Source of the DNA: Mobula hypostoma | Taxonomy: Eukaryota | Direction of reading: 5' to 3' | DNA length: 64,000 nucleotides | Assembly (NCBI RefSeq): GCF_963921235.1 | Contig: NC_086108.1 | Span: forward strand, 51,524,001-51,588,000 | In this document: positions 1 to 64,000 of the stretch, in pieces | How positions within the stretch are numbered: position 1 is the stretch's first letter | Layout: each line of letters begins with the position of its first letter | Notes under the pieces: generated by a model | What the model was told of the DNA's origin: nothing | Database searches by the model: none | Seen by the model: the letters and a program-made list of their open reading frames with translations, nothing else | Position numbers and translations under genes: made by a program

Positions 1-1940
1 GAGAAAATAAAGTCTGACGTAGCAGTATTTCAGTTGAGTCAAGGAAATTACAATAGTATGAGAGAGGAGTTGGCCAAAGTAAATTAGAGGGAGCTGCTGG
101 CTGGGATGACAGCAGAGGAGCAATGGCATGACTTTCTGGGGAAAATGAGAAAGGTGCAGGACAGATGTATTCCAAAATGAAGAAATACCCAAATGGCAAA
201 ATCGTACAACGTGGCAGACAAGGAAAGTCAAAGCTAATGTAAAAACAAAAGAGAGAGCATACAACAAAGCAAAAATTAGCGGGAAGATAGAGGATTGGGA
301 AGCTTTTAAAAACCTACAAAGAGCAACTAATGGAATCATTAGAAGGGAAAAGATGAAATGTGAAAACAATATGAAAGTGAATTGTAAAGCCTTTTTCAAG
401 TAGATATATAAAAGAAGAAAGATGAGAGTGGATATAGGACCACTAGAAAATGAGGTCGGAGGAATAATAATGGGGGAACAAGGAGATGGTAGATGAACTA
501 AACGAGTATATTGCATCATGGAAGACACTACAGATGTTGTACTATGTGTAGTCAGTTGTTGTAGTATGTGAAGGAAGAGAAGTGAATGCAGTTACCATTA
601 CAAGGGAGAAAGTGCTCAAAAGACCTAAAGGTACTCAAGTCATCCAGACCAAATGAACTGCACCCTAGGGTGCTGAATGGGGTAGTGTTAGAGATTGTGG
701 AGGCATTAGAAATGATCTTTCAAAAATCTTTGGTCTCTGGCATGGTGCCAGAGGACTGGAGAATTGCATATGTCACTCCACTCTTTAAGAAAGGAGGGAG
801 ACAACAGAAAGGAAATTATAGACAAGTTAGCTTGACTTCAGTGATGGGGAGGATGTTGGAATCAATTGTCAAGGATGAGGTTCTGGAATACTTGGTGACA
901 CAGGGCAAGATAGGACAAGGTCAGATGGTTTCCTTAAGGAAAAATCTTGCCTGACGAACCTATTGAAATTCTTTGAGGAGATTATAAGCAGGATAGATAA
1001 AGGGGATGCAGTGGATGTTGTATATTTGGATTTTCAGAAGGCCTTTGACAAGGTGCCACACAGGAGGCTGCTTACCAAGTTAGGAGACCATGATATTACA
1101 GGAAAGTTTTAACATGGCTAGAGCAAGAAAGTGCAATGTTGGAAAATGCATGGACATACTTTGGAAGAAGAAAGAAATAAGAAACTATTTTCTAAACAGG
1201 GAGAAAATCCAAAAATCTGAGATGCAAAGGGACTTGGGAGTCCTTGAGCAGAACACTCTAAAGGTTAACTTGCAGGTTGAGTTGGCGGTGAGGAAGGCAA
1301 ATGCAGTGTTAGCATTCATTTCAAGAGGTCTAGAACATAAGAGCAGGGATGGGATGCTGAGGATTTAAAGACACTGGTGAGGCCTCAGCTTGCGTATTGT
1401 GGACAGTTTTGGACTCCTCATCTAAGAAGAGATGTGCTGGCATTGGAGAGGGTCCAGAGGCGGTTCACTAGGATGATTCCAGGAATGAAAGGGTTATCAT
1501 ACGAGGAACATTGGAATGCACTGGGTCTGTATTTGCTGGAATTTAGAAGGATGAAGGGGGATCTCATTGAAACCATTTGAATGTTGAAAGGCCTAGACAA
1601 AGTAGATGTGGAAAGGATGTTTCCCATGGTGGGAGAGTCTAGGACAAGAAGGCACAACCTCAGGATAGAGAGGTGTCCATTTAAAACAGAGATGTGGAGA
1701 AATTTCTTTAGCCAGAGAATGGTGAATTTGTGGAATTTGTTACTAGAGGCAGCTGTGGAGGCCAGGTTTTTGGGTGTATTTAAGGCAGAGATTGATAGGT
1801 TCTTGATTGGACACAACATCAAAGGTTGCAGGGAAAATGCCGGGAAATGGGGTTGAGGAGGGGAAAAAGGGATCAGCTATGATTGAATGGTGGAGCAGAT
1901 TCGATGTGCCAAATGGCCTAATTCTGCACCTACGTCTTAT
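1..1940 (+). mobile_element. CR1-clade LINE, degenerate ORF2 (RT) plus 3' UTR; left end lies outside the window
   Basis: Frameshifted ORF pieces carry CR1 ORF2 motifs (VPEDWRIAYVTPLFKKG, YLDFQKAFDKV, LERVQRRFTRMIPG, RNFFSQRMVNLWN). Typical CR1 3' end (…gccaaatggcctaattctgcacctacgtcttat). Confidence 0.93.
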
Positions 1941-2098
1941 TTTGTGTGTGTTACTTAAACATAAATATTGCTGATTTTAGGCAAATTTCTTCTTGAACAG
2001 TATGTACAGTGTTTAAACTCGGTTCTGAATAAAGTGGAAATAATTCAAGATCAGTGGGGTGATTTCATGGGACTGTGAAGTCTTGTGGTTAGATAGAT

Positions 2099-2711
2099 CA
2101 GTGGTCCCCAACCTCAGGCCGTGAAGCATGCAGAGGTGCAGCGGTAGCCGAAGCACACCCAGCACATCTTTAAGAAAAAAGCCGAAATAAACAAGCTAAT
2201 TGATTCGGTGCTGCCCAGCACGTAAATGTCGGACCAGATCAGAGGCAATTGCTGATTTCACTTGCTCTACACAATGTTCACTCCTCTTTCCAGGGCGCTG
2301 GAGCCTGTAGCTGTTCCATTGTTTGGTCAATTTAAACGCCAGCCCAGACAGTCTGAGAAGACAGGGCTGTCAGGATCGAGGTGACATGTTGAATCTACAC
2401 AAACTTCTAATAAAGTATAGGTGCTGCCGTGCTTTCTTTGTAATGACAGGTACATGCTGGTCCCAGGACAGATCCTCTGACACTTTCCAGAGAGAGAAAC
2501 ATCGATCCTTAATGCCGAAGAATTTAAAGTCGTTGACCATCTCCACCTCAGTTCCTCTAATGAAGGCTGGCTTCTGGGTGGCACCTAATTAATTAGCTTG
2601 TTTATTTCAGCTTATTTCTTAAAGATGTGCTGGGTGCGCTCCGGCTACCGCTGCACCCCTGCATACTTCGCGGCCCTGTATTGGTCTGCGCCTGGAGGTT
2701 GAGGACCACTG
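2099..2711. mobile_element. Non-autonomous hAT (Charlie-like) MITE with long terminal inverted repeats
   Basis: Termini CAGTGGTCCCCAACCT / AGGTTGAGGACCACTG; ~110-130 bp inverted arms (2099-2211 vs ~2580-2711); 8-bp TSD AGATAGAT at 2091-2098 and 2712-2719. Confidence 0.88.
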
Positions 2712-2712
2712 A

Positions 2713-3342
2713 GATAGATTTAGATTATGAGGACACGCAGTCCTCTTTTATTGTCATTTAGTAATGCATGCATCAAGAAATGATACAATATTCCTCCAGT
2801 GTGATATCACAAAACACAGGACAGACCAAGACTGAAAAAACTAACAAAACCACATAATTATAACATATAGTTACAACGTGCAACAATACCATAACTTGAT
2901 GAAGAACAGTCCATGGCACAGTAAAAGAGTTCAAAGTTTCTTGGAAGTCCCACATCTCACACAGATGGGAGAAGGAAGAAAACTCTCCCTGCCATGCCTG
3001 ACCACAGTCCGACTCTGAGTTGTCCAAAAACTTCAAGCCTCCGATCAGCCCTCCGACACCGAGTACCGAGCACCATCTCTATCCGAACGATTTGACCTCA
3101 GTCTCGGTCCCCAGCAGCAGGCAAAGCCGGGGATTTTGAGGCCTTCCCTCCGGAAGATTCTCGATCGTGCAGTAACAACAGCAGCGAACCCGCGTTTCAG
3201 AAATTTCTCCAGATGTTCCTCTGTGCTTTCACGTCTGTCTCCATCAAATCAGAATTGTCCACAGCCCCTATTTAATGGATACGATATCATTTTCACCGGA
3301 GAGCTGCGCATGCACGGCGCGCTGCTGTCTTCTCCTCCCGCC
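2713..3342 (-). mobile_element. Non-coding SINE-like retroposon of unassigned family, with AATAAA and a microsatellite-like 3' tail
   Basis: Clearly homologous to 39590-40255 (shared blocks such as agattatgagga/gaacac…gtcctcttt…attgtcatttag and cacgtctgtctc…atcaaatcag). Minus-strand 3' end reads aataaaagaggactgcgtgtcctcataatctaaatct. Confidence 0.7.
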
Positions 3343-3626
3343 AGATGTGCTGGGTGCGCTCTGGCTACCCCTGCACCCCTGCATGCTTCGCGGCCTGGTA
3401 TCGGTCCTCAGCCTGGAGGTTGAGGATGACCCAAGAAAAGTCAAATGGCTTCCATTTACTGTTTTGCCATTACATTGTGATGAGAGAAGTATTTGACATT
3501 GTTAGAGTGATTTGGGGTTTCGACATTTACATTTAGCAAATGCCTTCTCAGCTACCAATCTGCAAATCTGAATGTAAATTGTAGATTTAATGTAAATGAG
3601 CACTAGGTTCCTAAAAGCTGTGAATC

Positions 3627-6600
3627 ACATAGAAACATAGAAACATAGAAAATAGGTGCAGGAGTAGGCCATTCGGCCCTTCGAGCCTGCACCGCCATTT
3701 ATTATGATCATGGCTGATCATCCAACTCAGAACCCAGCCTTCCCTCCATACCCCCTGACCCCTGTAGCCACAAGGGCCATATCTAACTTCCTTTTAAACA
3801 TAGCTAATGAACTGGCCTCAACAGTTTGCTGTGGCAGAGAATTCCACAGATTCACCACTCTCTGTGTGAAGAAGTTTTTCCTAACCTCGGTCCTAAAAGG
3901 CTTCCCCTCTATCCTCAAACTGTGACCCCTCGTTCTAGACCTCCCCAACATCGGGAACAATCTTCCCGCATCTAGCCTGTCCAATCCCTTTAGGATCTTA
4001 TACGTTTCAATCAGATCCCCCCTCAATCTTCTAAATTCCAACGAGTACAAGCCCAGTTCATCCAGTCTTTCTTCATATGAAAGACCTGCCATCCCAGGAA
4101 TCAATCTGGTGAACCTTCTTTGTACTCCCTCTATGGCAAAGATGTCTTTCCTCAGATTAGGGGACCAAAACTGCACACAATACTCCAGGTGTGGTCTCAC
4201 CAAGGCCTTGTACAACTGCAGTAGTACCTCCCTGCTCCTGTACTCGAATCCTCTCGCTATAAATGCCAGCATACCGTTCGCCTTTTTCACCGCCTGCTGT
4301 ACCTGCATGCCCACTTTCAATGACTGGTGTATAATGACACCCAGGTCTCGTTGCACCTCCCCTTTTCCTAATCGGCCACCATTCAGATAATAATCTGTTT
4401 TCCTATTTTTGCCACCAAAGTGGATAACTTCACATTTATCCACATTAAATTGCATCTGCCATGAGTTTGCCCACTCACCCAACCTATCCAAGTCACCCTG
4501 CATCCTCTTAGCATCCTCCTCACTGCTAACACTGCCACCCAGCTTCGTGTCATCCGCAAACTTGGAGATGCTGCATTTAATTCCCTCATCCAAGTCATTA
4601 ATATATATTGTAAACAACTGGGGTCCCAGCACTGAGCCTTGCGGTACCCCACTAGTCACCGCCTGCCATTCTGAAAAGGTCCCATTTATTCCCACTCTTT
4701 GCTTCCTGTCTGCTAACCAATTCTCCACCCACACCAATACCTTACCCCCAATACCGTGTGCTTTAAGTTTGCACATTAATCTCCTGTTTGGGACCTTGTC
4801 AAAAGCCTTTTGAAAATCCAAATATACCACATCCACTGGTTCTCCCCTATCCACTCTACTAGTTACATCCTCAAAAAATTCTATGAGACTCGTCAGACAT
4901 GATTTTCCTTTCACAAATCCATGCTGACTTTGTCCGATCATTTCACCGCTTTCCAAATGTGCTGTTATCACATCCTTGATAACTGACTCCAGCAGTTTCC
5001 CCACCACCGACGTTAGGCTAACCGGCCTATAATTCCCCGGTTTCTCTCTCCCTCCTTTTTTAAAAAGTGGGGTTACATTAGCCACCCTCCAATCCTCAGG
5101 AACTAGTCCAGAATCTAACGAGTTTTGAAAAATTATCACTAATGCATCCACTATTTCTTGGGCCACTTCCTTAAGCACTCTGGGATGCAGACCATCTGGC
5201 CCTGGGGATTTATCTGCCTTCAATCCCTTCAATTTACCTAACACCACTTCCCTACTAACATGTATTTCGCTCAGTTCCTCCATCTCACTGGACCCTCTGT
5301 CCCTTACTATTTCTGGAAGATTATTTATGTCCTCCTTAGTGAAGACAGAACCAAAGTAATTATTCAATTGTTCTGCCATGTCCTTGCTCCCCATAATCAA
5401 TTCACCTGTTTCTGTCTGCAGGGGACCTACATTTGTCTTTATCAGTCTTTTCCTTTTTACATATCTATAAAAGCTTTTACAGTCCGTTTTTATGTTCTCT
5501 GCCAGTTTTCTCTCATAATCTTTTTTCCCCTTCCTAATTAAGCCCTTTGTCCTCCTCTGCTGAACTCTGAATTTCTCCCAGTCCTCAGGTGAGCCACTTT
5601 CTCTGGCTAATTTGTATGCTACTTCTTTGGAATTGATACTATCCCTAATTTCTCTTGTCAGCCACGGGTGCACTACCTTCCTTGATTTATTCTTTTGCCA
5701 AACTGGGACGAACAATTGTTGTAGTTCATCCATGCAACCTTTAAATGCCTGCCATTGCATATCCACCGTCAATCCTTGAAGTGTCATTTGCCAGTCTATC
5801 TTAGCTAATTCACGTCTCATACCTTCAAAGTTACCCCTCTTTAAGTTCAGAACCTTTGTTTCTGAATTAACTACGTCACTCTCCATGTTAATGAAGAATT
5901 CCGCCATATTATGGTCACTCTCACCCAAGGGGCCTCTCACGACAAGATCGCTAATTAACCCTTCCTCATTGCTCAAAACCCAGTCCAGAATAGCCTGCTC
6001 TCTAGTCGGTTCCTCGACATGTTGGTTCAAAAAACCATCCCGCATACATTCCAAGAAATCCTCTTCCTCAGCACCTTTACCAATTTGGTTCACCCAGTCT
6101 ACATGTAGATTGAAGTCACCCATTATAACTGCTGTTCCTTTATTGCACACATTTCTAATTTCCTGTTTAATACCATCTCCGACCTCACTACTACTGTTAG
6201 GTGGCCTGTACACAACTCCCACCAGCGTCTTCTGCCCCTTAGTGTTACGCAGCTCTACCCATATCGATTCCACATCTTCCCGGCTTATGTCCTTCCTTTC
6301 TATTGCGTTAATCTCTTTTTTAACCAGCAACGTCACCCCACCTCCCCTTCCTTCATGTCTATCCCTCCTGAATATTGAATATCCCTGAACGTTGAGCTCC
6401 CATCCCTGGTCACCCTGGAGCCATGTCTCTGTGATCCCAACTATATCATAATCATTAATAACAATCTGCACTTTCAATTCATCCACCTTATTACGAATGC
6501 TCCTTGCATTGACACATAAAGCCTTCAGGCGCTCTTTTACAACTCTCTTAGCCCTTTTTAATGCTTGCCCTGGATTTGTCGGCCTGCCACTTTTACTTTT

Positions 6601-17922: not shown

Positions 17923-18280
17923 AACCTACCCGGAATGTCTTTGCACTGTGGGAGATGTATAGGCAGATTGCAGAAGTGTGTGAAAGCAGTAGGATTATAG
18001 TAATAGGGGATATTAACTTTTCCAATATTGTCCAAAGTTGGAATTCGTAAAAGAAAATTTTTGAAGCAACGTCGGAATCTTATTTAAGGATGAAGCTGTT
18101 CTAAACCTTTAAGTGTTATAGGGAATTTTGGAAATGAAGTTAAGAAGGCAAAAGGGTGCCATGAAATAACCTTGGCTTGTAAAATTAAGGAGAATTCTAA
18201 AACCTTTTGTAGGTATGTTAGAAGAAGGAGGGTTGCTAAGAAAAGAGAGTGACTGAAGAAACAATATGTGTGGAGTGTAT

Positions 18281-18466
18281 GGGGTGTCAGGGAGGGGTAG
18301 CACCTCTGGTGGGGGAACATGTTGCGTCCTTTTCAGGGCAGTTTGTCCACCTTTGGTCCCCACCTGGCACTCAGCTCTCACCTGTGGCTCCCTGTAGCTG
18401 TTTACATGCAACAGAGGCCACACCCCAGGCAACGGCTTTGACAAGCCGTCTAAACCAGGTGAGGGT
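18281..18466 (+). ncRNA. Predicted HDV-like self-cleaving ribozyme (nested double pseudoknot)
   Basis: P1 GGGGTGT(18281-87)/ACACCCC(18420-26); P2 GCTCTCACCTG(18374-84)/CAGGTGAGGGT(18456-66); P3 GGC(18386-88)/GCC(18417-19); L3 begins TCC; AGGCAA follows P1; P4 ACGGCTT-tgac-AAGCCGT; J4/2 C18450-TAA. Confidence 0.72.
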
Positions 18467-18791
18467 AGCCGACGGGTCTCAAACCCTCGGTGAGATAGGG
18501 AGTTGTCTATCCCAGCATGTGAAGACAGACTCTGGCGGACTGAGCGGATGAGACCAATGGAAGGTCCAACGGTCAAGAAGGCGGTCTCTGCAAGCTTCGT
18601 GGAACGTGTAGAGCACGACAAGACACAGAATATGTCCTGGTCATCCACTGCACCTAGTCCCATCTCCAGCCGTCTCGACTCTTGTCTTGCCACTGGATCC
18701 AGATGGGAATTGGGAAGAGAGAGTGAGGCTGAGGCTGTGCAACTCCCCCTCACTTAAATCCAAATTACGCGCCAGTCTCAGCACCATCATA

Positions 18792-18931
18792 GCCGGCTGG
18801 TAGCGTAGTGACATCAGCGCTGGACTTTAGGGCGAAGGTTCCCGAGTTCGAATCCAGTTGAGCCGCTCCCAGGCATGCATTCCATCCGTGCCGGGTTGAG
18901 TGTTGAGCTAGCAACTCGACCTCATAAAAAG
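18792..18931 (+). mobile_element. tRNA-derived SINE (copy 1)
   Basis: A-box-like TAGCGTAGTGA and B-box GAGTTCGAATCC; homologous to the copy at 19074. Confidence 0.75.
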
Positions 18932-19073
18932 TACTAATGGTGTCAAGGTCTTCATTGATGATGATGGATGAACCTTATATGTGTGGAGTGAGGTCCTAAG
19001 TTAATACTTCTCAGTGTTCACAATGGAGAAGGATCTGGAGGGTAAAGCCTTAAGAGAGTATACTGATATTCTA

Positions 19074-19271
19074 GCTGGCTGGTGGTATAGTGGCATCAGC
19101 ACCGGACTTCAGAGCAGAGGCTCCCAAGTTCAAATCTTTCTATCCGTGCTGGTTTGAGTATCGAGCTAGCAACTCGGCCTCGTAAAAATAAGAAAGCCTG
19201 CTTTAAAAAAAAACGCCGTCATGACGGCATCCTGATGACTCCACTCGAAGTTAAGGGTTTTCTATCTATCT
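19074..19271 (+). mobile_element. tRNA-derived SINE (copy 2) with a (TCTA)n tail
   Basis: A-box TGGTATAGTGG, B-box AAGTTCAAATC; shares gagctagcaactcg[g/a]cctc[g/a]taaaaa with copy 1. Confidence 0.75.
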
Positions 19272-21254: not shown

Positions 21255-22331
21255 TGTCATAAGGTGGTGGCTGGGAACAGACCCAAGTGCAAGACACAGA
21301 CACTGAAGTACTAGGGACAGGACTAGGATACAGGGTGAGGGCTAGGACATGGACACGAAAACCGGGAATCCGGAACAGGACTGGACAAGAGAGCTAGGAG
21401 CCCAGGCTTGGACTCCAAGCCAGAGACAGGACAAGGACCCAGAACCTAGGTCTTGCCTCTGGCTCGGACCCCAGAACTAGGCAAGGACGTGACTTGGCGG
21501 GCAGGCAGGACAAGGCTGGAGTCTTCAGACTTGAGGCAAGGCTGGAGACCAGAGACTTGAGGCGAGGCTGGAGATCAGAGACTTGAAACTAGAGACTTGA
21601 GGTGATGCTTGAGGCTTGGAGTCTTGAAGTTTGGCTTCGGGCGAGGCTCGGCTAGAGACTTGAGGCGAGGCGAGGTTAGGGGCTTGGGGTCTTGAAGCTC
21701 CTCCTGGGCAGGGCGCGGATCTTCACCCGACGGAGGCAAGGGGCAGGAAGGGACAGAACCAACCGTACGTAACGGCAAGTTGGCCTGGCTTACCCGACGG
21801 AGGCAAGGGACAGGAAGGGACAGAACCAACCGTAGGTAATGGCAATACGGCCTGGCTTACCCAACGGAGGCAAGGGACAGGAAGGGACAGAACCAACCAT
21901 AGGGTAACAGCAAGACGGCCCAGCTTACCCAACTGAGGCAAGGGACAGGAAGGGAGCTAGGTACAGGGTGGCTCCAAGACAAGACTTCAGGCGAGGTGAG
22001 GCAAGAGTTACCGGCAAGACAAGGCAAGGCTTCAGGCAATGCAAGGCAAGACAAGAACTTCAGGCGAGGCGAGAGTTACCAGCAAGACAAGCCAAGGCTT
22101 CAGGCGAGGAAACAGAAGGCAGGGGAAGGGATACAAGGAGTAAGGACAAGAACAATCCAGCCGCCACGCCCTGATCTCTGGAGGTATTTATGCAGCCAGC
22201 CCCAACGAGAATCAGCTGCCTCAATTAGTGCTCCTCAGGAACAGAAACAGGGTAGACCGGAAAACCTGGAGCAAGGGTCAATGGACCGGACGGTGAACCA
22301 GAATGCGGACTTCACGGACCGGACCATGACA
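21255..22331. mobile_element. Solo LTR (1077 bp) with internal tandem repeats
   Basis: Terminal inverted repeat TGTCAT…ATGACA; 5-bp TSD GAGTC (21250-21254 / 22332-22336). Confidence 0.88.
21722..21955. repeat. ~59-bp tandem repeat, about 4 copies, inside the solo LTR
   Basis: Recurring unit ttacccgacggaggcaagggacaggaagggacagaaccaaccgta…ggcctggc. Confidence 0.9.
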
Positions 22332-49758: not shown

Positions 49759-52700
49759 CAAGGACTGCAGTCACGTGGGAACTCTACCACATACAGGTTT
49801 CCCTCCGAGTCACATGGGAACTCTACCACACACAGGTTTCCCTCCGAGTCACATGGGAACTCTACCACATACAGGTTTCCCTCCGTGTCACATGGGAACT
49901 CTACCACACACAGATTTCCCTCCGAGTCACATGGGAACTCTACCACACACAGGTTTCCCTCCGAGTCACGTGGGAACTCTACCACACACAGGTTTCCCTC
50001 CGAGTCACATGGGAACTCTACCACACACAGGTTTCTCTCCAAGGACTGCAGTCACGTGGGAACTCTACCACACACAGGTTTTCCTCCGAGTCACATGGGA
50101 ACTCTACCACACACAGGTTTTCCTCCGAGTCACATGGGAACTCTACCACGCACAGGTTTCCCTCCGAGTCACATGGGAACTCTACCACACACAGGTTTCC
50201 CTCCGAGTCACATGGGAACTCTACCACACACAGGTTTCCCTCCGAGTCACGTGGGAACTCTACCACGCACAGGTTTTCCTCCGAGTCGCATGGGAACTCT
50301 ACCACACACAGGTTTCCCTCCAAGGACTGCAGGCAAATGGGAACTCTACCACACACAGGTTTCCCTCCAAGGACTGCAGGCACATGGGAACTCTACCACA
50401 CACAGGTTTCCCTCCGAGTCACATGGGAACTCTACCACACACAGGTTTCCCTCCGAGTCACATGGGAACTCTACCACACACAGGTTTCCCTCCGAGTCAC
50501 ATGGGAACTCTACCACACACAGGTTTCCCTCCGAGTCACATGGGAACTCTACCACACACAGGTTTCCCTCCGAGTCACATGGGAACTCTACCACACACAG
50601 GCTTCCCTCCGAGTCACATGGGAACTCTACCACACACAGGTTTCCCTCCGAGTCACATGGGAACTCTACCACACACAGGTTTTCCTCCGACTCACATGGG
50701 AACTCTACCACACACAGGTTTCCCTCCGAGTCACATGGGAACTCTACCACACACAGGTTTCCCTCCGAGTCACATGGGAACTCTACCACACACAGGTTTC
50801 CCTCCGAGTCACATGGGAAATCTACCACACACAGATTTCCCTCCGACTCACATGGGAACTCTACCACACACAGGTTTCCCTCCGAGTCACGTGGGAACTC
50901 TACCACACACAGGTTTCCCTCCGAGTCACATGGGAACTCTACCACACACAGGTTTCCCTCCGAGTCACGTGGGAACTCTACCACACACAGGTTTCCCTAC
51001 GAGTCACATGGGAAATCTACCACACACAGATTTCCCTCCGAGTCACGTGGAAACTCTACCACACACAGGTTTCCCTCCGAGTCACGTGGGAACTCTACCA
51101 CACACAGGTTTCCCTCCGAGTCACATGGGAACTCTACCACACAAAGGTTTCTCTCTCAGTCACATGGGAACTCTACCACACACAGGTTTCCCTCCGAGTC
51201 ACGTGGGAACTCTACCACACACAGGTTTCTCTCTCAGTCACATGGGAACTCTACCACACACAGGTTTCCCTCCGAGTCACGTGGGAACTCTACCACACAC
51301 AGATTTCCCTCCGAGTCACGTGGGAACTCTACCACACACAGGTTTCCCTCCGAGTCACATGGGAACTCTACCACACAAAGGTTTCTCTCTCAGTCACATG
51401 GGAACTCTACCACACACAGGTTTCCCTCCGAGAGTCACGTGGGAACTCTACCACACACAGGTTTCTCTCTCAGTCACATGGGAACTCTACCACACACAGG
51501 TTTCCCTCCGAGTCACGTGGGAAATCTACCTCATACAGGTTTCCCTTCCAGTCACATGGGAACTCTACCACACACTGGTTTCCCTCCAAGGACTGCAGGC
51601 ACATGGGAACTCTACCACACACAGGTTTCTCTCTCAGTCACATGGGAACTCTACCACACACAGGTTTCTCACTCAGTCACATGGGAACTCTACCACACAC
51701 AGGTTTCCCTCCGAGTCACGTGGGAACTCTACCACACACAGATTTCCCTCCGAGTCACATGGAAACTCTACCACACACAGGTTTCCCTCCGAGTCACGTG
51801 GGAACTCTACCACACACAGGTTTCCCTCCGAGTCACATGGGAACTCTACCACACACAGGTTTCCCTCCGAGTCACATGGGAACTCTACCACACACAGGTT
51901 TCCCTCCGAGTCACATGGGAACTCTACCACACACAGGTTTCCCTCCAAGGACTGCAGGCACATGGGAACTCTACCACACACAGGTTTCCCTCCGAGTCAC
52001 ATGGGAACTCTACCACACACAGGTTTCCCTCCGAGTCACGTGGGAACTCTACCACACACAGGTTTCCCTCCGAGTCACATGGGAACTCTACCACACACAG
52101 GTTTCCCTCCGAGTCACGTGGGAACTCTACCACACACAGGTTTCCCTCCGAGTCACATGGGAACTCTACCACACACAGGTTTCCCTCCGAGTCACATGGG
52201 AACTCTACCACACACAGGTTTCCCTCCAAGGACTGCAGGCACATGGGAACTCTACCACACACAGGTTTCCCTCCGAGTCACGTGGGAACTCTACCACACA
52301 CAGGTTTCCCTCCGAGTCACGTGGGAACTCTACCACACACAGGTTTCCCTCCGAGTCACATGGGAACTCTACCGCACACAGGTTTCCCTCCGAGTCACAT
52401 GGGAACTCTACCACACACAGGTTTCCCTCCGAGTCACGTGGGAACTCTACCACACACAGGTTTCCCTCCGAGTCACATGGGAACTCTACCACACACAGGT
52501 TTCCCTCCGAGTCACATGGGAACTCTACCACACACAGGTTTCCCTTCGAGTCACATGGGAACTCTACCACACACTGGTATCCCTCCAAGGACTGCAGGCA
52601 CATGGGAACTCTACCACACACAGGTTTCCCTCCGAGTCACGTGGGAACTCTACCACACACAGGTTTCCCTCCGAGTCACATGGGAACTCTACCACACACA

Positions 52701-55700
52701 GGTTTCCCTCCAAGGACTGCAGGCACATGGGAACTCTACCACACACAGGTTTCCCTCCGAGTCACATGTGAACTCTACCACACACAGGTTTCCCTCTGAG
52801 TCACATGGGAACTCTACCACACACAGGTTTCCCTCCGAGTCACGTGGGAACTCTACCACACACAGGTTTCCCTCCGAGTCACATGGGAACTCAACCACAC
52901 ACAGGTTTCCCTCCGAGTCACATGGGAACTCTACCACACACAGGTTTCCCTCCGAGTCACATGGGAACTCTACCACACACAGGTTTCCCTCCGAGTCACA
53001 TGGGAACTCTACCACACACAGGTTTCCCTCCGAGTCACATGGGAACTCTACCACACACAGGTTTCCCTCCAAGGACTGCAGGCACATGGGAACTCTACCA
53101 CACACAGGTTTCCCTCCGAGTCACGTGGGAACTCTACCACACACAGGTTTCCCTCCGAGTCACATGGGAACTCTACCACACACAGGTTTCCCTCCGAGTC
53201 ACATGGGAACTCTACCACACACAGGTTTCCCTCCGAGTCACGTGGGAACTCTACCACACACAGGTTTCCCTCCGAGTCACATGGGAACTCTACCACACAC
53301 AGGTTTCCCTCCGAGTCACGTGGGAACTCTACCACACACAGGTTTCCCTCCGAGTCACATGGGAACTCTACCACACACAGGTTTCCCTCCGAGTCACATG
53401 GGAACTCTACCACACACAGGTTTCCCTCCGAGTCACATGGGAACTCTACCACACACAGGTTTCCCTCCGAGTCACATGGGAACTCTACCACACACAGGTT
53501 TCCCTCCGAGTCACATGGGAACTCTACCACACACAGGTTTCCCTCCGAGTCACGTGGGAACTCTACCACACACAGGTTTCCCTCCAAGGACTGCAGGCAC
53601 ATGGGAACTCTACCACACACAGGTTTCCCTCCGAGTCACATGGGAACTCTACCACACACAGGTTTCCCTCCGAGTCACATGGGAACTCTACCACACACAG
53701 GTTTCCCTCCGAGTCACATGGGAACTCTACCGCACACAGGTTTCCCTCCGAGTCACATGGGAACTCTACCACACACAGGTTTCCCTCCAAGGACTGCAGG
53801 CACATGGGAACTCTACCACACACAGGTTTCCCTCCGAGTCACGTGGGAACTCTACCACACACAGGTTTCCCTCCGAGTCACATGGGAACTCTACCACACA
53901 CAGGTTTCCCTCCAAGGACTGCAGGCACATGGGAACTCTACCACACACAGGTTTCCCTCCGAGTCACATGGGAACTCTACCACACACAGGTTTCCCTCCG
54001 AGTCACATGGGAACTCTACCACACACAGGTTTCCCTCCGAGTCACGTGGGAACTCTACCACACAGAGGTTTCCCTCCAAAGACTGCAGGCACATGGGAAC
54101 TCTACCACACACAGGTTTCCCTCCGAGTCACATGGGAACTCTACCACACACAGGTTTCCCTCCGAGTCACGTGGGAACTCTACCACACACAGGTTTCCCT
54201 CCGAGTCACATGGGAACTCTACCACACACAGGTTTCCCTCCGAGTCACATGGGAACTCTACCACACACAGGTTTCCCTCCAAGGACTGCAGGCACATGGG
54301 AACTCTACCACACACAGGTTTCCCTCCGAGTCACGTGGGAACTCTACCACACACAGGTTTCCCTCCGAGTCACGTGGGAACTCTACCACACACAGGTTTC
54401 CCTCCGAGTCACGTGGGAACTCTACCACACACAGGTTTCCCTCCGAGTCACGTGGGAACTCTACCACACACAGGTTTCCCTCCGAGTCACATGGGAACTC
54501 TACCACACACAGGTTTCCCTCCAAGGACTGCAGGCACATGGGAACTCTACCACACACAGGTTTCCCTCCGAGTCACATGGGAACTCTACCACACACAGGT
54601 TTCCCTCCAAGGACTGCAGGCACATGGGAACTCTACCACACACAGGTTTCCCTCCGAGTCACATGGGAACTCTACCACACACAGGTTTCCCTCCAAGGAC
54701 TGCAGGCACATGGGAACTCTACCACACACAGGTTTCCCTCCGAGTCACATGGGAACTCTACCACACACAGGTTTCCCTCCGAGTCACATGGGAACTCTAC
54801 CACACACAGGTTTCCCTCCGAGTCACATGGGAACTCTACCACACACAGGTTTCCCTCCAAGGACTGCAGTCACATGGGAACTCTACCACACACAGGTTTC
54901 CCTCCAAGAACGACAGGCACATGGGAATTCTAACACACATAGGTTTCTCTCCCACTCACATGGGAACTCTACCACACACAGGTTTCCCTCCGAGTCACAT
55001 GGGAACTCTACCACACACAGGTTTCCCTCCGAGTCACATGGGAACTCTACCACACACAGGTTTCCCTCCGAGTCACATGGGAACTCTACCACACACAGGT
55101 TTCCCTCCGAGTCACGTGGGAACTCTACCACACACAGGTTTCCCTCCGAGTCACATGGGAACTCTACCACACACAGGTTTCCCTCCGAGTCACGTGGGAA
55201 CTCTACCACACACAGGTTTCCCTCCGAGTCACGTGGGAACTCTACCACACACAGGTTTCCCTCCGAGTCACATGGGAACTCTACCACACACAGGTTTCCC
55301 TCCGAGTCACATGGGAACTCTACCACACACAGGTTTCCCTCCGAGTCACATGTGAACTCTACCACAAACAGGTTTCCCACGAAGGACTGAGGCACATGGG
55401 AACTCTACCACACAGAGGTTTCCCTTCCATTCATTTGGGAACTCTACCACACACAGGTGTCCCTCCAAGCACGGCAGGCAGATGGGAACTCCACCACACA
55501 CAGGTTTCACTCCGAGTCACATGGGAACTCTACCACACACAGGTTTCCCTCCGAGTCACGTGGGAACTCTACCACACACAGGTTTCCCTCCGAGTCACAT
55601 GGGAACTCTACCACACACAGGTTTCCCTCCGAGTCACATGGGAACTCTACCACACACAGGTTTCCCTCCAAGGACTGCAGGCACATGGGAACTCTACCAC

Positions 55701-58700
55701 ACACAGGTTTCCCTCCGAGTCACGTGGGAACTCTACCACACACAGGTTTCCCTCCGAGTCACGTGGGAACTCTACCACACACAGGTTTCCCTCCGAGTCA
55801 CATGGGAACTCTACCACACACAGGTTTCCCTCCGAGTCACGTGGGAACTCTACCACACACAGGTTTCCCTCCGAGTCACGTGGGAACTCTACCACACACA
55901 GGTTTCCCTCCAAGGACTGCAGGCACATGGGAACTCTACCACACACAGGTTTCCCTCCAAGGACGACAGGCACATTGGAATTCTAACACACACAGGTTTC
56001 TCTCCCAGTCACATGGGAACTCTACCACACACAGGTTTCCCTCCGAGTCACGTGGGAACTCTACCACACACAGGTTTCCCTCCAAGGACTGCAGGCACAT
56101 GGGATCTCTACCACACACAGGTTCCCTCCGAGTCACATGGGAACTCTACCACACCCAGGTTTCCCTCCAAGAACGACAGGCACATTGGAATTCTAACACA
56201 CATAGGTTTCTCTCCCACTCACATGGGAACTCTACCACACACAGGTTTCCCTCCGAGTCACATGGGAACTCTACCACACACAGGTTTCCCTCCGAGTCAC
56301 GTGGGAACTCTACCACACACAGGTTTCCCTCCCAGTCACATGGGAACTCTACCACACACAGGTTTCCCTCCGAGTCACATGGGAACTCTACCACACACAG
56401 GTTTCCCTCCAAGGACTGCAGGCACATGGGAACTCTACCACACACAGGTTTCCCTCCGAGTCACATGGGAACTCTACCACACACAGGTTTCCCTCCGAGT
56501 CACATGGGAACTCTACCACACACAGGTTTCTCTCCGAGTCACATGGGAACTCTACCACACACAGGTTTCCCTCCGAGTCACATGGGAACTCTACCACACA
56601 CAGGTTTCCCTCCGAGTCACGTGGGAACTCTACCACACACAGGTTTCCCTCCGAGTCACATGGGAACTCTACCACACACAGGTTTCCCTCCGAGTCACGT
56701 GGGAACTCTACCAAACACAGGTTTCCCTCCGAGTCACGTGGGAACTCTACCAAACACAGGTTTCCCTCCGAGTCACATGGGAACTCTACCACACACAGGT
56801 TTCCCTCCGAGTCACATGTGATCTCTACCACAAACAGGTTTCCCACGAAGGACTGAGGCACATGGGAACTCTACCACACAGAAGTTTTCCTCCAAGTCAC
56901 ATGGGAACACTACCACACACAGGTTTCCCTCCGAGTCACGTGGGAACTCTACCACACACAGGTTTCCCTCCAAGAACTGCAGACACATGGGAACTCTACC
57001 ACACACAGGTATCCCTCCGAGTCACATGGGAACTCTACAACACACAGGTTTCCCTCCAGGAACTGCAGTCACATGGGAACTCTACCACACACAGGTTTCC
57101 CTCCGAGTCACATGGGAACTCTACCACACACAGGTTTCCGTCCGAGTCACATGGGAACTCTACGACACACAGGTTTCCCTGCAAGGACTGCAGGCACATG
57201 GGAACTCGACCACACACAGGTTTACCTACAAGGACTGCAGGCACATGGGAACTGAACCACACTCAGGTTTCCCTCCGAGTCACGTGGGAACTCTACAACA
57301 CACAGGTTTCCCTCCGAGTCACATGGGAACTCTACCACACACAGGTTTCCTTCCGAGTCACATGGGAACTCTACCACACACAGGTTTCCCTCCGAGTCAC
57401 GTGGGAACTCTACCACACACAGGTTTCCCTCCGAGTCACATGGGAACTCTACCACACACAGGTTTCCCTCCGAGTCACATGGGAACTCTACCACACACAG
57501 GTTTCCCTCCGAGTCACGTGGGAACTCTACCACACACAGGTTTCCCTCCAAGGACTGCAGGCACATGGGAACTCTACCACACACAGGTTTCCCTCCGAGT
57601 CACGTGGGAACTCTACCACACACAGGTTTCCCTCCGAGTCACGTTGGGAACTCTACCACACACATGTTTCCCTGCAAGGACTGCAGACACATGGGAACTC
57701 TACCATACACAGGTTTCCCTCCAAGGACTGCAGGCTCATGGGAACTCTACCACACACAGGTTTCCCTCCGAGTCACATGGGAACTCTACCACACACAGGT
57801 TTCCCTCCGAGTCACATGGGAACTCTACCACACACAGGTTTCCCTCCGAGTCACGTGGGAACTCTACCACACACAGGTTTCCCTCCGAGTCACATGGGAA
57901 CTCTACCACACACAGGTTTCCCTCCAAGGACTGCAGGCACATGGGAACTCTACCACACACAGGTTTCCCTCCGAGTCACATGGGAACTCTACCACACACA
58001 GGTTTCCCTCCGAGTCACATGGGAACTCTACCACACACAGGTTTCCCTCCGAGTCACATGGGAACTCTACCACACACAGGTTTCCCTCCAAGGACTGCAG
58101 GCACATGGGAACTCTACCACACACAGGTTTCCCTCCGAGTCACATGGGAACTCTACCACACACAGGTTTCCCTCCAAGGACTGCAGGCACATGGGAACTC
58201 TACCACACACAGGTTTCTCTCCCAGTCACATGGGAACTCTACCACACACAGGTTTCCCTCCGAGTCACGTGGGAACTCTACCACACACAGGTTTCCCTCC
58301 GAGTCACGTGGGAACTCTACCACACACAGGTTTCCCTCCGAGTCACATGGGAACTCTACCACACACAGGTTTCCCTCCAAGGACTGCAGGCACATGGGAA
58401 CTCTACCACACACAGGTTTCCCTCCGAGTCACGTGGGAACTCTACCACACACAGGTTTCCCTCCGAGTCACGTGGGAACTCTACCACACACAGGTTTCCC
58501 TCCGAGTCACATGGGAACTCTACCACACACAGGTTTCCCTCCGAGTCACATGGGAACTCTACCACACACAGGTTTCCCTCCAAGGACTGCAGGCACATGG
58601 GAACTCTACCACACACAGGTTTCCCTCCGAGTCACATGGGAACTCTACCACACACAGGTTTCCCTCCGAGTCACGTGGGAACTCTACCACACACAGGTTT

Positions 58701-61700
58701 CCCTCCGAGTCACATGGGAACTCTACCACACACAGGTTTCCCTCCGAGTCACATGGGAACTCTACCACACACAGGTTTCCCTCCGAGTCACATGGGAACT
58801 CTACCACACACAGGTTTCCCTCCAAGGACTGCAGGCACATGGGAACTCTACCACACACAGGTTTCCCTCCGAGTCACATGGGAACTCTACCACACACAGG
58901 TTTCCCTCCGAGTCACGTGGGAACTCTACCACACACAGGTTTCCCTCCGAGTCACGTGGGAACTCTACCACACACAGGTTTCCCTCCGAGTCACATGGAA
59001 ACTCGATCACACACAGGTTTCCCTCCGAGTCACATGGGAACTCTACCAGACACAGGTTTCCCTCCGAGTCACGTGGGAACTCTACCAAACACAGGTTTCC
59101 CTCCGAGTCACATGGGAACTCTACCACACACAGGTTTCCCTCCGAGTCACATGTGAACTCTACCACAAACAGGTTTCCCACGAAGGACTGAGGCACATGG
59201 GAACTCTACCACACAGAAGGTTTCCCTCCAAGTCACATGGGAACACTACCACACACAGGTTTCCCTCCGAGTCACGTGGGAACTCTACCACACACAGGTT
59301 TCCCTCCAAGAACTGCAGACACATGGGAACTCTACCACACACAGGTATCCCTCCGAGTCACATGGGAACTCTACAACACACAGGTTTCCCTCCAGGAACT
59401 GCAGACACATGGGAAATCTACCACACAGAGGTTTCCCTCCGAGTCACATGGGAACTCTACCACACACAGGTTTCCGTCCGAGTCACATGGGAACTCTACG
59501 ACACACAGGTTTCCCTGCAAGGACTGCAGGCACATGGGAACTCGACCACACACAGGTTTCCCTACAAGGACTGCAGGCACATGGGAACTGAACCACACTC
59601 AGGTTTCCCTCCGAGTCACGTGGGAACTCTACAACACACAGGTTTCCCTCCGAGTCACATGGGAACTCTACACACACAGGTTTCCTTCCGAGTCACATGG
59701 GAACTCTACCACACACAGGTTTCCCTCCGAGTCACATGGGAACTCTACCACACACAGGTATTCCTCCGAGTCACATGGGAACTCTACCACACACAGGTTT
59801 CCCTCCGAGTCACATGGGAACTCTACCACACACAGGTTTCCCTCCGAGTCACATGGGAACTCTACCACACACAGGTTTCCCTCCAAGGACTGCAGGCACA
59901 TGGGAACTCTACCACACACAGGTTTCCCTCCGAGTCACGTGGGAACTCTACCACACACAGGTTTCCCTCCGAGTCACGTGGGAACTCTACCACACACATG
60001 TTTCCCTGCAAGGACTGCAGACACATGGGAACTCTACCATACACAGGTTTCCCTCCAAGGACTGCAGGCTCATTTGAAATCTACCACACACAGGTTTCCC
60101 TCCGAATCACATGGTAACTCTACCACACACAGGTTTCCGTCCGAGTCACATAGGAACTCTACCACACACAGGTTTCCCTCCGAGTCACGTGGGAACTCTA
60201 CCACACACAGGTTTCCCTCCGAGTCACATGGGAACTCTACCACACACAGGTTTCCCTCCAAGGACTGCAGGCACATGGGAACTCTACCACACACAGGTTT
60301 CCCTCCGAGTCACATGGGAACTCTACCACACACAGGTTTCCCTCCGAGTCACATGGGAACTCTACCACACACAGGTTTCCCTCCGAGTCACATGGGAACT
60401 CTACCACACACAGGTTTCCCTCCAAGGACTGCAGGCACATGGGAACTCTACCACACACAGGTTTCCCTCCGAGTCACATGGGAACTCTACCACACACAGG
60501 TTTCCCTCCAAGGACTGCAGGCACATGGGAACTCTACCACACACAGGTTTCTCTCCCAGTCACATGGGAACTCTACCACACACAGGTTTCCCTCCGAGTC
60601 ACGTGGGAACTCTACCACACACAGGTTTCCCTCCGAGTCACGTGGGAACTCTACCACACACAGGTTTCCCTCCGAGTCACATGGGAACTCTACCACACAC
60701 AGGTTTCCCTCCGAAGCACATGGGAAATCTACCACACACAGGTTTCCCTCCGAGTCACATGGGAACTCTACCACACACAGGTTTCCCTCCGAGTCACGTG
60801 GGAACTCTACCACACACAGGTTTCCCTCCGAGTCACATGGGAACTCTACCACACACAGGTTTCCCTCCGAGTCACATGGGAACTCTACCACACACAGGTT
60901 TCCCTCCAAGGACTGCAGGCACATGGGAACTCTACCACACACAGGTTTCCCTCCGAGTCACGTGGGAACTCTACCACACACAGGTTTCCCTCCGAGTCAC
61001 ATGGGAACTCTACCACACACAGGTTTCCCTCCGAGTCACGTGGGAACTCTACCACACACAGGTTTCCCTCCGAGTCACGTGGGAACTCTACCACACACAG
61101 GTTTCCCTCCGAGTCACATGGGAACTCTACCACACACAGGTTTCCCTCCAAGGACTGCAGGCACATGGGAACTCTACCACACACAGGTTTCCCTCCGAGT
61201 CACATGGGAACTCTACCACACACAGGTTTCCCTCCGAGTCACATGGGAACTCTACCACACACAGGTTTCCCTCCGAGTCACATGGGAACTCTACCACAGA
61301 CAGGTTTCCCTCCAAGAACTGCAGGCACATGGGAATTCTATCACACATAGGTTTCTCTCCCACTTACATGGGAACTCTACCACACACAGGTTTCCCTCCG
61401 AGTCACATGGGAACTCTACCACACACAGGTTTCCCTCCGAGTCACATGGGAACTCTACCACACACAGGTTTCCCTCCAAGGACGATGAGTCACATGGGAA
61501 CTCTACCACACACAGGTTTCCCTCCAAGAACGACAGGCACATGGGAACTCTACCACACACAGGTTTCTCTCCACTCACATGGGAACTCTACCACACACAG
61601 GTTTCCCTCCGAGTCACATGGGAACTCTACCACACACAGGTTTCCCTCCGAGTCACATGGGAACTCTACCACACACAGGTTTCCCTCCGAGTCACGTGGG

Positions 61701-64000
61701 AACTCTACCAAACACAGGTTTCCCTCCGAGTCACATGGGAACTCTACCACACACAGGTTTCCCTCCGAGTCACATGGGAACTCTACCACACACAGGTTTC
61801 CCTCCGAGTGACGTGGGAACTCTACCAAACACAGGTTTCCCTCCGAGTCACGTGGGAACTCTACCACACACAGGTTTCCCTCCGAGTCACATGGGAACTC
61901 TACCACACACAGGTTTCCCTCCGAGTCACATGGAAACTCTACCACACACAGGTTTCCCTCCGAGTCACATGTGAACTCTACCACAAACAGGTTTCCCACG
62001 AAGGACTGAGGCACATGGGAACTCTACCACACAGAAGTTTTCCTCCAAGTCACATGGGAACTCTACCACACCCAGGTTTCCCTCCAAGAACGACAGGCAC
62101 ATGGGAATTCTAACACACATAGGTTTCTCTCCCACTCACATGGGAACTCTACGACACACAGGTATCCCTCCGGGAGACGTGGGAACTCTACCACACACAG
62201 GTTTCCCTCCGAGTCACATGGAACTCTACCACAAACAGGTTTCCCTCCGAGTCACGTGGCAACTCTACCACACACAGGTTTCCCTCCGAGTCACATGGGA
62301 ACTCTACCACACACAGGTTTCCCTCCAAGGACTGCAGGCACATGGGAACTCTACCACACACAGGTTTCTCTCCTAGTCAGATGGGAACTCTACCACACAG
62401 AGGTTTCCCTCCGAGTCACGTGGGATCTCTACCACACACAGGTTTCCCTCTGAGTCACATGGGAATTCTACTACACACAGTTTTCCCTCCGAGTCACATG
62501 GGAACTCTACCACACACAGGTTTCCCTCCAAGGACTGCAGGCACATGGGAACTCTACCACACACAGGTTTCCCTCCGAGTCACATGGGAACTCTACCACA
62601 CACAGGTTTCCCTCCGAGTCACGTGGGAACTCTACCACACACAGGTTTCCCTCCGAGTCACGTGGGAACTCTACCACACACAGGTTTCCCTCCGAGTCAC
62701 GTGGGAACTCTACCACACACAGGTTTCCCTCCGAGTCACATGGGAACTCTACCACACACAGGTTTCCCTCCAAGGACTGCAGGCAAATGGGAACTCTACC
62801 ACACACAGGTTTCCCTCCAAGGACTACAGGCACATGGGAATTCTAACACACATAGGTTTCTCTCCCACTCACATGGGAACTCTACCACACACAGGTTTCC
62901 CTTCGAGTCACGTGGGAACTCTACCACACACAGGCTTCCCTCCAAGGACTGCAGGCACATGGGATCTCTACCACACACAGGTTCCCCTCCGAGTCACATG
63001 GGAACTCTACCACACCCAGGTTTCCCTCCAAGAACGACAGGCACATGGGAATTCTAACACACATAGGTTTCTCTCCCACTCACATGGGAACTCTACCACA
63101 CACAGGTTTCCCTCCGAGTCACATGGGAACTCTACCACACACAGGTTTCCCTTCGAGTCACGTTGGAACTCTACCACACACAGGTTTCCCTCCAAGGACT
63201 GCAGTCACATGGGAACTCTACCACACACAGGTTCCCCTCCGAGTCACATGGGAACTCTACCACACCCAGGTTTCCCTCCAAGAACGACAGGCACATGGGA
63301 ATTCTAACACACATAGGTTTCTCTCCCACTCACATGGGAACTCTACCACACACAGGTTTCCCTCCGAGTCACATGGGAACTCTACCACACACAGGTTTCC
63401 CTCCGAGTCACATGGGAACTCTACCACACACAGGTTTCCCTCCGAGTGACGTGGGAACTCTACCAAACACAGGTTTCCCTCCGAGTCACGTGGGAACTCT
63501 ACCACACACAGGTTTCCCTCCGAGTCACATGGGAACTCTACCACACACAGGTTTCCCTCCGAGTCACGTGGGAACTCTACCACACACAGGTTTCCCTCCG
63601 AGTCACGTGGGAACTCTACCACACACAGGTTTCCCTCCGAGTCACATGGGAACTCTACCACACACAGGTTTCCCTCCGAGTCACATGGGAACTCTACCAC
63701 ACACAGGTTTCCCTCCAAGGACTGCAGGCACATGGGAACTCTACCACACACAGGTTTCCCTCCGAGTCACATGGGAACTCTACCACACACAGGTTTCCCT
63801 CCGAGTCACATGGGAACTCTACCACACACAGGTTTCCCTCCGAGTCACGTGGGAACTCTACCACACACAGGTTTCCCTCCGAGTCACGTGGGAACTCTAC
63901 CACACACAGGTTTCCCTCCGAGTCACGTGGGAACTCTACCACACACAGGTTTCCCTCCAAGGACTGCAGGCACATGGCAACTCTACCACACCCAGGTTTC
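49759..64000. repeat. Large tandem array (>14.2 kb, roughly 350 units, runs off the window) of 39-bp units interspersed with 47-bp variants
   Basis: 39-mer GTCAC(A/G)TGGGAACTCTACCACACACAGGTTTCCCTCCGA; the 47-mer ends …CCCTCCAAGGACTGCA and the next unit then usually begins GGCAC. High homogeneity, no unique spacers. Confidence 0.98.

What the first reader, a model, noticed from the sequence alone, without database searches (positions are those of the whole stretch)
18278..18976. Short non-coding retroelement headed by a complete HDV-like ribozyme
Seen: a ~700-bp insertion (~560 bp without its nested SINE) with a perfect 14-bp TSD and a (GAT)n tail. Three nt after the left TSD, G18281 starts a full HDV topology in the correct order: 7-bp P1 (GGGGTGT/ACACCCC), 11-bp P2, 3-bp P3 (GGC/GCC), L3 starting UCC, AGGCAAC after P1 (genomic HDV has GGGCAAC), a 7-bp P4 hairpin and J4/2 C-U-A-A with the putative catalytic C at 18450. 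Established: HDV-like ribozymes process the 5' ends of R2, RTE and some other non-LTR retrotransposons. Inference: this is a non-autonomous family of ribozyme plus tail with no RT, which cuts itself out of host transcripts and is mobilised in trans, probably by an RTE-clade LINE. The predicted cleavage site coinciding with the element's 5' boundary is independent support. In this copy the first P1.1 G reads A (18427, plausibly CpG decay), so it may be impaired.
Basis: partly seen in the sequence, partly recalled or inferred. Interest (0 to 1): 0.8.

Follow-up and report, generated by a model that had tools for sequence, protein, structure and literature searches.

The report
Ribozyme-headed retroelement carrying a SINE
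This is one copy of a large family of short, non-coding jumping elements made from the two ends of an RTE-type LINE found in the same genome; it starts with a predicted self-cleaving RNA and holds a SINE between two complementary arms that likely guide how such elements form.

Summary
The HDV-like fold, TSD and family are real, but the start is wrong. 24 of 30 copies begin at 18272-76, not 18281, and folding and covariation put P1 there. The partner was found: a ~4.1-kb endonuclease+RT LINE sharing the first ~515 nt (88%) and the tail. Its UTRs resemble Repbase RTE-3_AMi and RTE-1_PSi.

The plain derivative (~565 bp) is a known kind, the bipartite non-autonomous RTE or SIDE. Two features were not found in print. 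(1) An 11-bp 5'UTR/3'-end complement marks the deletion joint; the same arms covary in turtle and alligator RTEs and flank the joints of marsupial WALLSI elements. (2) The SINE is not a private nested insertion but part of a subfamily with a nearly fixed 3' joint and 39 different 5' joints in 81 copies, which suggests repeated template jumps.

Cleavage is untested, and this copy is probably impaired.

The parts
18264..18277 (+). Left TSD; its last 6 nt (GGAGTG) stand in place of the element's GGGGTG (5' microhomology join)
18272..18278 (+). Family 5' end and predicted P1 5' strand; A18274 is a mismatch here, G in 80 of 100 copies
18282..18372 (+). J1/2 domain closed by a 10-bp stem, 18282-91 with 18363-72, which sequesters the second G-run
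   Evidence: unpaired probability 0.00-0.10 at these letters in 3 of 4 copies folded; the fourth (L168) pairs only partly; pair changes in relatives
18374..18466 (+). HDV-like core: P2 18374-84/18456-66, P3 18386-88/18417-19, L3 18389-18416 with an inserted hairpin, P1 3' strand 18420-26, P1.1 18390-91/18427-28 (A18427 decayed), P4 18433-38/18443-48, putative catalytic C18450
18467..18776 (+). Remainder of the RTE LINE 5'UTR segment
   Evidence: 88% over 525 nt to LINE L154 for 18275-18790; resembles RTE-3_AMi 147-292 by eye
18777..18787 (+). Left arm of the long-range stem (family CTCGACACCAT; two changes in this copy)
18788..18791 (+). Hypervariable left-part/SINE joint
   Evidence: 39 distinct strings in 81 copies
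18792..18930 (+). tRNA-like SINE head and body (A-box-like 18801-11, B-box-like 18846-54; box consensus recalled), shared with free SINEs that carry other tails
   Evidence: ARAGORN finds no tRNA
18928..18976 (+). LINE-derived 3' end: right arm 18937-47, then the recognition segment and the subfamily-specific end GAACCTT
   Evidence: 84% over 50 nt to the L154 3' end
18977..18990 (+). Right TSD

Best explanation
This is a non-coding derivative of an RTE-type LINE present in the same genome, built from the LINE's first ~515 nt, a SINE head and the LINE's last ~50 nt; its 5' end is predicted to be cut by an HDV-like ribozyme just before G18272, and it was likely copied in trans by the LINE's reverse transcriptase. 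Shown: shared ends, TSDs, pile-up of 5' ends, covarying helices, and an 11-bp complement between the 5'UTR and the 3' end located at the joints. Inferred: the stem brings both ends together, so reverse transcriptase that has copied the tail can jump across it. That would give the plain ~565-bp form from the LINE several times. For the SINE-bearing form, RT would copy a SINE+tail RNA held by its right arm to the left arm of a LINE-derived RNA and then jump onto it; I put about 0.5 on this last step. This particular copy is likely impaired (A18274, A18427, T18449).
For: Family: 1205 exact ribozyme-core matches, control 0. Starts: 24 of 30 at 18272-76, none sharing more than 6 nt upstream. Partner: L154, ~233-4300, with TSD, PF03372 at E 1e-13 and a sub-threshold RVT_1 piece. 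Relatives are ~1060-1070-aa EN+RT proteins, up to 81% identical. Both ends also seen in L253, L258, L259 and the 5'-truncated L153, L256. Ribozyme relatives occur in 4 of 80 metagenome loci; 10 of 41 pairs change on both sides, 0 of 500 shuffles reach this. Stem: the joints of form A and of five further LINE-tailed deletions lie at the arms. Arms read CTTGACATC/GATGTCAAG in RTE-1_PSi and CATGACATC/GATGTCATG in RTE-3_AMi, and WALLSI1, 1A and 2 join there (Kojima supplement; complementarity read by eye). SINE form: 39 joints in 81 copies against one modal joint in 19 of 27 form-A copies. Its left parts share five LINE polymorphisms at which form A is nearly uniform.
Against: No cleavage or RNA-end data exist. 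Rfam has no hit, and L3 is 28 nt with a hairpin whose tolerance is untested. More copies keep 7 of 7 Watson-Crick pairs in the 18281 register (55 of 100) than in the 18272 register (38 of 100); I ascribe this to eroded 5' ends. The covariation set has only ~4 independent lineages, and at least 2 of the 10 pairs are alignment artefacts. An 11-bp inverted repeat alone is unremarkable in 4 kb (3 perfect ones among the 25 longest listed). Other deletions with other breakpoints exist (L286, L153, L253, L257). Against repeated jumps: left-part and SINE variants are linked more than by chance (p=0.009), 0 of 30 tail loci are SINE-only, and L002/L024 share private changes across the joint. No intact LINE ORF was seen (longest stop-free stretch 579 aa).
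Confidence: 0.82

Rival explanations
1. The SINE-bearing form replicates as one continuous ribozyme-headed RNA from many master copies. The joint varies because that RNA is cut or re-joined in cis at the SINE boundary, or through later recombination with LINE copies.
For: Left-right linkage p=0.009. No SINE-only tail copies in 30 (upper bound about 10%). All 30 LINE 3' copies also extend 213 nt or more, so a continuous template explains that absence. L002/L024 share private changes across the joint.
Against: The continuous control, form A, has a nearly fixed joint (p=4e-5). Left parts carry several LINE subfamily polymorphisms that a single founder cannot supply. Joint class is unlinked to left-part sites (0 of 24 informative tests at p<0.05). 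Shared rare variants do not correlate across the joint (Mantel p=0.80).
Confidence: 0.4
2. The 5' end is set by an internal Pol II promoter initiating at 18272, and the fold is vestigial or serves translation of the LINE.
For: A sharp start is also expected from an internal promoter. L1Tc's Pr77 is both promoter and ribozyme (PMC3383444, search listing and abstract start). No cleavage data exist here.
Against: G1 sits exactly opposite the P1 3' strand, and P1 position 5 changes in compensation in relatives. Cap-type extra G is rare: of 19 clear TSDs, 9 have no extra base, 5 a single T and 2 contain G. C18450 and the following TAA are kept in 97-101 of 101 copies and in all four relatives.
Confidence: 0.12
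3. One reading: cleavage at G18281.
For: 7 of 7 pairs in this copy and in 55 of 100 copies. 2 of 30 copies start there.
Against: 24 of 30 copies start 9 nt upstream. The second G-run is held in the J1/2 stem. Forced P1 folds are 7.8 kcal/mol less stable in both copies computed. In relatives, same-register pairing is 7 of 7 in L174, 6 of 7 in L176 and 5 of 7 in L208 and L230 (6 of 7 if shifted by one).
Confidence: 0.08

Closest known systems
Bipartite non-autonomous RTE elements (RTE-N1/N2_Lch, RTESINE1/2, WALLSI3, MAR4_MD; Kojima 2018, PMC5786205, parts 1-4 of 5 and supplement passages read)
   Same: 5' end plus 3' end of an RTE, no ORF. The paper notes that these usually keep the LINE's 5' end and that some RTEs are predicted to carry a ribozyme.
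   Different: The window copy holds a tRNA-like SINE between the two parts, downstream of the ribozyme; the SINEs listed in that paper have the head upstream. A pairing of the arms is not mentioned.
RTE-3_AMi and RTE-1_PSi with WALLSI1/1A/2 (Kojima supplement)
   Same: Recognisably homologous 5'UTR segment and 3' tail; the joint lies at the same arms.
   Different: Different hosts. Only aligned fragments were seen, so the ribozyme region could not be compared.
R2 SIDEs and R2/R1 hybrid SIDEs (PMC3414825, passages read); NARTc, RIME, SIDER (PMC4035085, passages read)
   Same: HDV-like ribozyme plus LINE 3' end, mobilised in trans. Cleavage is shown there, and R2 template jumps to tRNA and U12 are seen in vivo.
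   Different: Other LINE clades; R2 is site-specific; no SINE-bearing family with a hypervariable joint in the passages read.
U6/LINE and tripartite template-switch chimeras (PMC4476161, passages; PMC2104539, abstract)
   Same: RNAs joined during reverse transcription, including by RTE-like LINEs.
   Different: Tripartite cases there are rare single events. Here the three-part form has at least 183 exact tail matches, and the acceptor is the LINE's own 5'UTR at a complementary arm.

Membership tests
HDV-like ribozyme | Nested double pseudoknot with P1, P1.1, P2, P3, P4 in order | tested here: met
   Descriptor hit, 0 in 588 kb of shuffles; covariation. P1.1 is broken in this copy.
HDV-like ribozyme | Conserved L3 UCC and J4/2 C-N-R-A (recalled consensus) | tested here: met
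   97-101 of 101 copies; all four relatives
HDV-like ribozyme | Short L3 and a match to curated Rfam models | tested here: not met
   L3 is 26-30 nt with a hairpin in family and relatives; no Rfam HDV-family hit
HDV-like ribozyme | Element 5' end at G1 of P1 | tested here: met
   24 of 30 at 18272-76
HDV-like ribozyme | Self-cleavage dependent on Mg2+ and the catalytic C | not testable with these tools
   No assay; only contigs were available
Bipartite non-autonomous RTE / SIDE | Only the 5' and 3' parts of an autonomous LINE, no ORF | tested here: met
   Strictly true of form A; this copy adds a SINE.
Bipartite non-autonomous RTE / SIDE | TSDs and interspersed copies | tested here: met
RTE-clade LINE (partner) | Single ORF with APE endonuclease and RT, short 3'UTR | tested here: met
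   the ORF is broken in all copies seen
RTE-clade LINE (partner) | RT phylogeny within RTE | not tested
   No named reference RTs held. UTR likeness to RTE-3_AMi and RTE-1_PSi was judged by eye.
tRNA-derived SINE (Pol III unit) | Copies begin at the tRNA-like head | tested here: not met
   0 of 30 tail loci; 0 of 14 free heads carry this tail
Template-switch chimera | Independent joints with untemplated letters inside one TSD | tested here: inconclusive
   39 joints in 81 copies, inserts 68-72% A, but residual linkage across the joint

The most novel reading that the evidence does not exclude
This RTE lineage keeps a covarying duplex between its 5'UTR and its 3' end that programmes template jumps. 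It explains why bipartite derivatives in this genome and in marsupials break at the same place. A SINE that stole the tail uses the same arm to dock onto LINE RNAs, so each new insertion re-acquires a ribozyme-headed 5' end from the LINE: a SINE that replicates by obligate, base-pair-guided chimera formation.
Probability: 0.35. Interest if true: 0.75.

Novelty: new variant of a known kind. Interest (0 to 1): 0.5.

Why it matters
The ribozyme-headed short element itself is a new member of a known kind. The extra value is a testable rule for an open point in Kojima 2018, namely why only some LINE clades yield bipartite derivatives: end-to-end pairing may fix the breakpoints. The family also offers a vertebrate HDV-like ribozyme with an extended L3 in over a thousand copies, and possibly a SINE that hitchhikes by base pairing.

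Tried and rejected
Rfam at both thresholds: no HDV family. ARAGORN: no tRNA. A guessed LINE-tail pattern gave 1 match against 1 in the control. Other RTE fragments in flanks (L041, L075) have different tails and were rejected as partners; the tails of L057 and L090 were not seen.

No RNA holder was listed among 24 runs. The 8 runs laid are contigs, which cannot show cleavage. Viral contigs: no relative. The 3' end of relative L174 could not be obtained, so the stem was not tested in metagenome relatives; L246 has a decayed tail and is inconclusive. PDB search gave only L1 ORF2, one RT entry and R2 proteins.

Ruminski 2011 and Webb 2009 are not held, so I know them only through citing passages. 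Ten paper searches found no report of the stem or of this family. The library lacks most subscription papers and Repbase Reports, and only part 2 of 15 of the Kojima supplement plus search hits was read. Two look-ups of earlier findings returned nothing.

Dropped before counts: 17 duplicate loci and the rearranged pair L137/L138. Sixteen to seventeen joints were read by hand. No tree was built. An RNase P cut at the SINE head was considered; the head folds without a clear cloverleaf, so it was left as a weak idea.

Full report
Setting. The window is G000:C50:51524001-51588000 in a 3.48-Gb genome. The closest named protein relatives of the partner LINE are from a shark and a turtle at 81%; a cartilaginous-fish host is my inference from recalled repeats, not a result. 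The insertion interrupts an old LINE fragment (the CR1 label is recalled).

Observation. All named helices and the 14-bp TSD are at the stated places. A descriptor scan hits the window once and 0 times in 588 kb of shuffles. Rfam has no HDV match.

Family and 5' end. The element has 9479 first-look candidates and 1205 exact matches to a ribozyme-core pattern. Among the first 30 pattern loci, 24 start at the 18272-76 position, 2 at 18281 and 4 further in; no two share more than 6 nt upstream. Across 100 copies, conservation switches on at 18272. There are two G-runs 9 nt apart. The second is paired in a J1/2 stem while the first stays free in 3 of 4 folds, and forcing P1 on the first is 7.8 kcal/mol better in both copies computed. 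Against this, more copies keep perfect pairing in the second register (55 versus 38 of 100), which I ascribe to erosion of 5' ends by microhomology, as in this copy. Four of 80 metagenome loci encoding relatives of the LINE hold the same ribozyme. On 8 sequences, 10 of 41 pairs change on both sides, with 0 of 500 shuffles as high. Only about four lineages are independent and at least two of those pairs are alignment artefacts, but changes in P1 position 5, P2, P4 and the J1/2 stem are real. The fold is well supported and cleavage is predicted before G18272. This copy has A18274, A18427 and T18449 where 80 of 100, 83 of 101 and 95 of 101 copies have G, so it is likely impaired.

Partner. A pattern just before the joint (400 matches) gave 3 of 30 loci that run on into a long shared sequence. 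L154 is a ~4.1-kb element with a TSD, the same first ~515 nt (88%) and the same tail (84% over 50 nt). It has an endonuclease domain (PF03372, E 1e-13) and a sub-threshold RT piece, and its relatives are ~1060-1070-aa EN+RT proteins. There are 14 exact 5'UTR and 94 exact 3'-end matches, and all copies read are broken. Its UTRs resemble RTE-3_AMi and RTE-1_PSi fragments printed in the supplement of PMC5786205 (compared by eye, no tree).

Two short forms. Form A (26 of 30 ribozyme loci; 3 are form B and 1 is interrupted) joins the left part directly to the tail. Form B, the window's form, has a SINE head and body in between and its own tail end (183 exact matches). All 30 tail loci examined carry the left part. 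Of 30 SINE-head loci, 14 are free SINEs with other tails, 14 are form B and 2 are a rearranged pair. Contigs spanning the form-B 5' joint occur in 3 of 4 other runs laid.

The stem. In the LINE, CTCGACACCAT at 747-757 is complementary to ATGGTGTCGAG at 4257-4267. Such a repeat is not rare by itself. However, form A and five further LINE-tailed deletions (L095, L108, L111, L117, L119) all join at these arms with different joint letters. The printed turtle and alligator RTE fragments have arms CTTGACATC/GATGTCAAG and CATGACATC/GATGTCATG, three compensatory changes in nine pairs across the three lineages, and WALLSI1, 1A and 2 join there. The paper's text does not mention the pairing, nor does PMC3403934. 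Deletions with other breakpoints also exist. Inference: pairing brings both ends together and RT jumps across the base of the stem.

How form B arises. Its 3' joint is essentially one sequence, while its 5' joint has 39 strings in 81 copies, against one modal joint in 19 of 27 form-A copies (p=4e-5). Inserts are 68-72% A, unlike the T-rich extras at element 5' ends (p=2e-5). Left parts share five polymorphic sites with the LINE pool at which form A is nearly uniform, and at least two SINE subtypes occur. This favours repeated joining of a SINE+tail RNA to LINE-derived RNA. Against it: left-part and SINE variants are linked (p=0.009), no SINE-only copy was seen, and one pair shares private changes across the joint. 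I put about 0.5 on repeated jumps in trans and 0.4 on a continuous RNA with many masters or re-joining in cis.

Known kinds. Ribozyme-plus-tail derivatives are described for R2 (PMC3414825, passages), for trypanosomatid elements (PMC4035085, passages) and as bipartite RTEs (PMC5786205, parts 1-4 of 5); a review cites ribozymes in RTEs and SINEs (PMC6765202, passages). Template-switch chimeras are known for RTE-like LINEs (PMC4476161, passages), and tripartite ones are rare (PMC2104539, abstract). Ten searches found no report of this family, of the stem, or of a SINE held inside such an element; library coverage is partial and Repbase entries were not visible.

Verdict. It is a new variant of a known kind, interest 0.5.

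Noticed in passing
window 49769-63958: Large satellite, 39-bp unit, about 350 copies.
   Followed up: no
window 19072-19270: Free, older copy of the same SINE head with a different tail (67% over 141 nt).
   Followed up: partly
window 21500-22110: Cluster of short GC-rich tandem repeats with periods 22-67.
   Followed up: no
L023 flanks (G000:C80:11055274-11058973): The copy sits inside another structured repeat that looks like a different RTE 5'UTR (recalled resemblance); my HDV descriptor did not hit it.
   Followed up: partly
L041, L057, L075, L090 flanks: Several other RTE-type LINE fragments; the tails seen (L041, L075) differ from this family's.
   Followed up: partly
L069:780-1920 (minus strand): Two ribozyme-headed left parts in tandem, about 70 nt apart; the first lacks a normal tail.
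   Followed up: partly
L137/L138 (G000:C2:56284437-56287654): Tail-to-tail inverted pair of form-B copies fused within the SINE.
   Followed up: no
L286; L153, L253, L257: LINE copies with internal deletions at other breakpoints, which suggests a jump-prone RT.
   Followed up: partly
L154 ~780-1080 and loci L169-L248: A second 5'UTR block just upstream of the ORF is conserved at 70-80% in many distant relatives; function unknown.
   Followed up: no
L126, L149 versus L128-L145: The same SINE head occurs with at least three further tails, showing frequent tail exchange.
   Followed up: no
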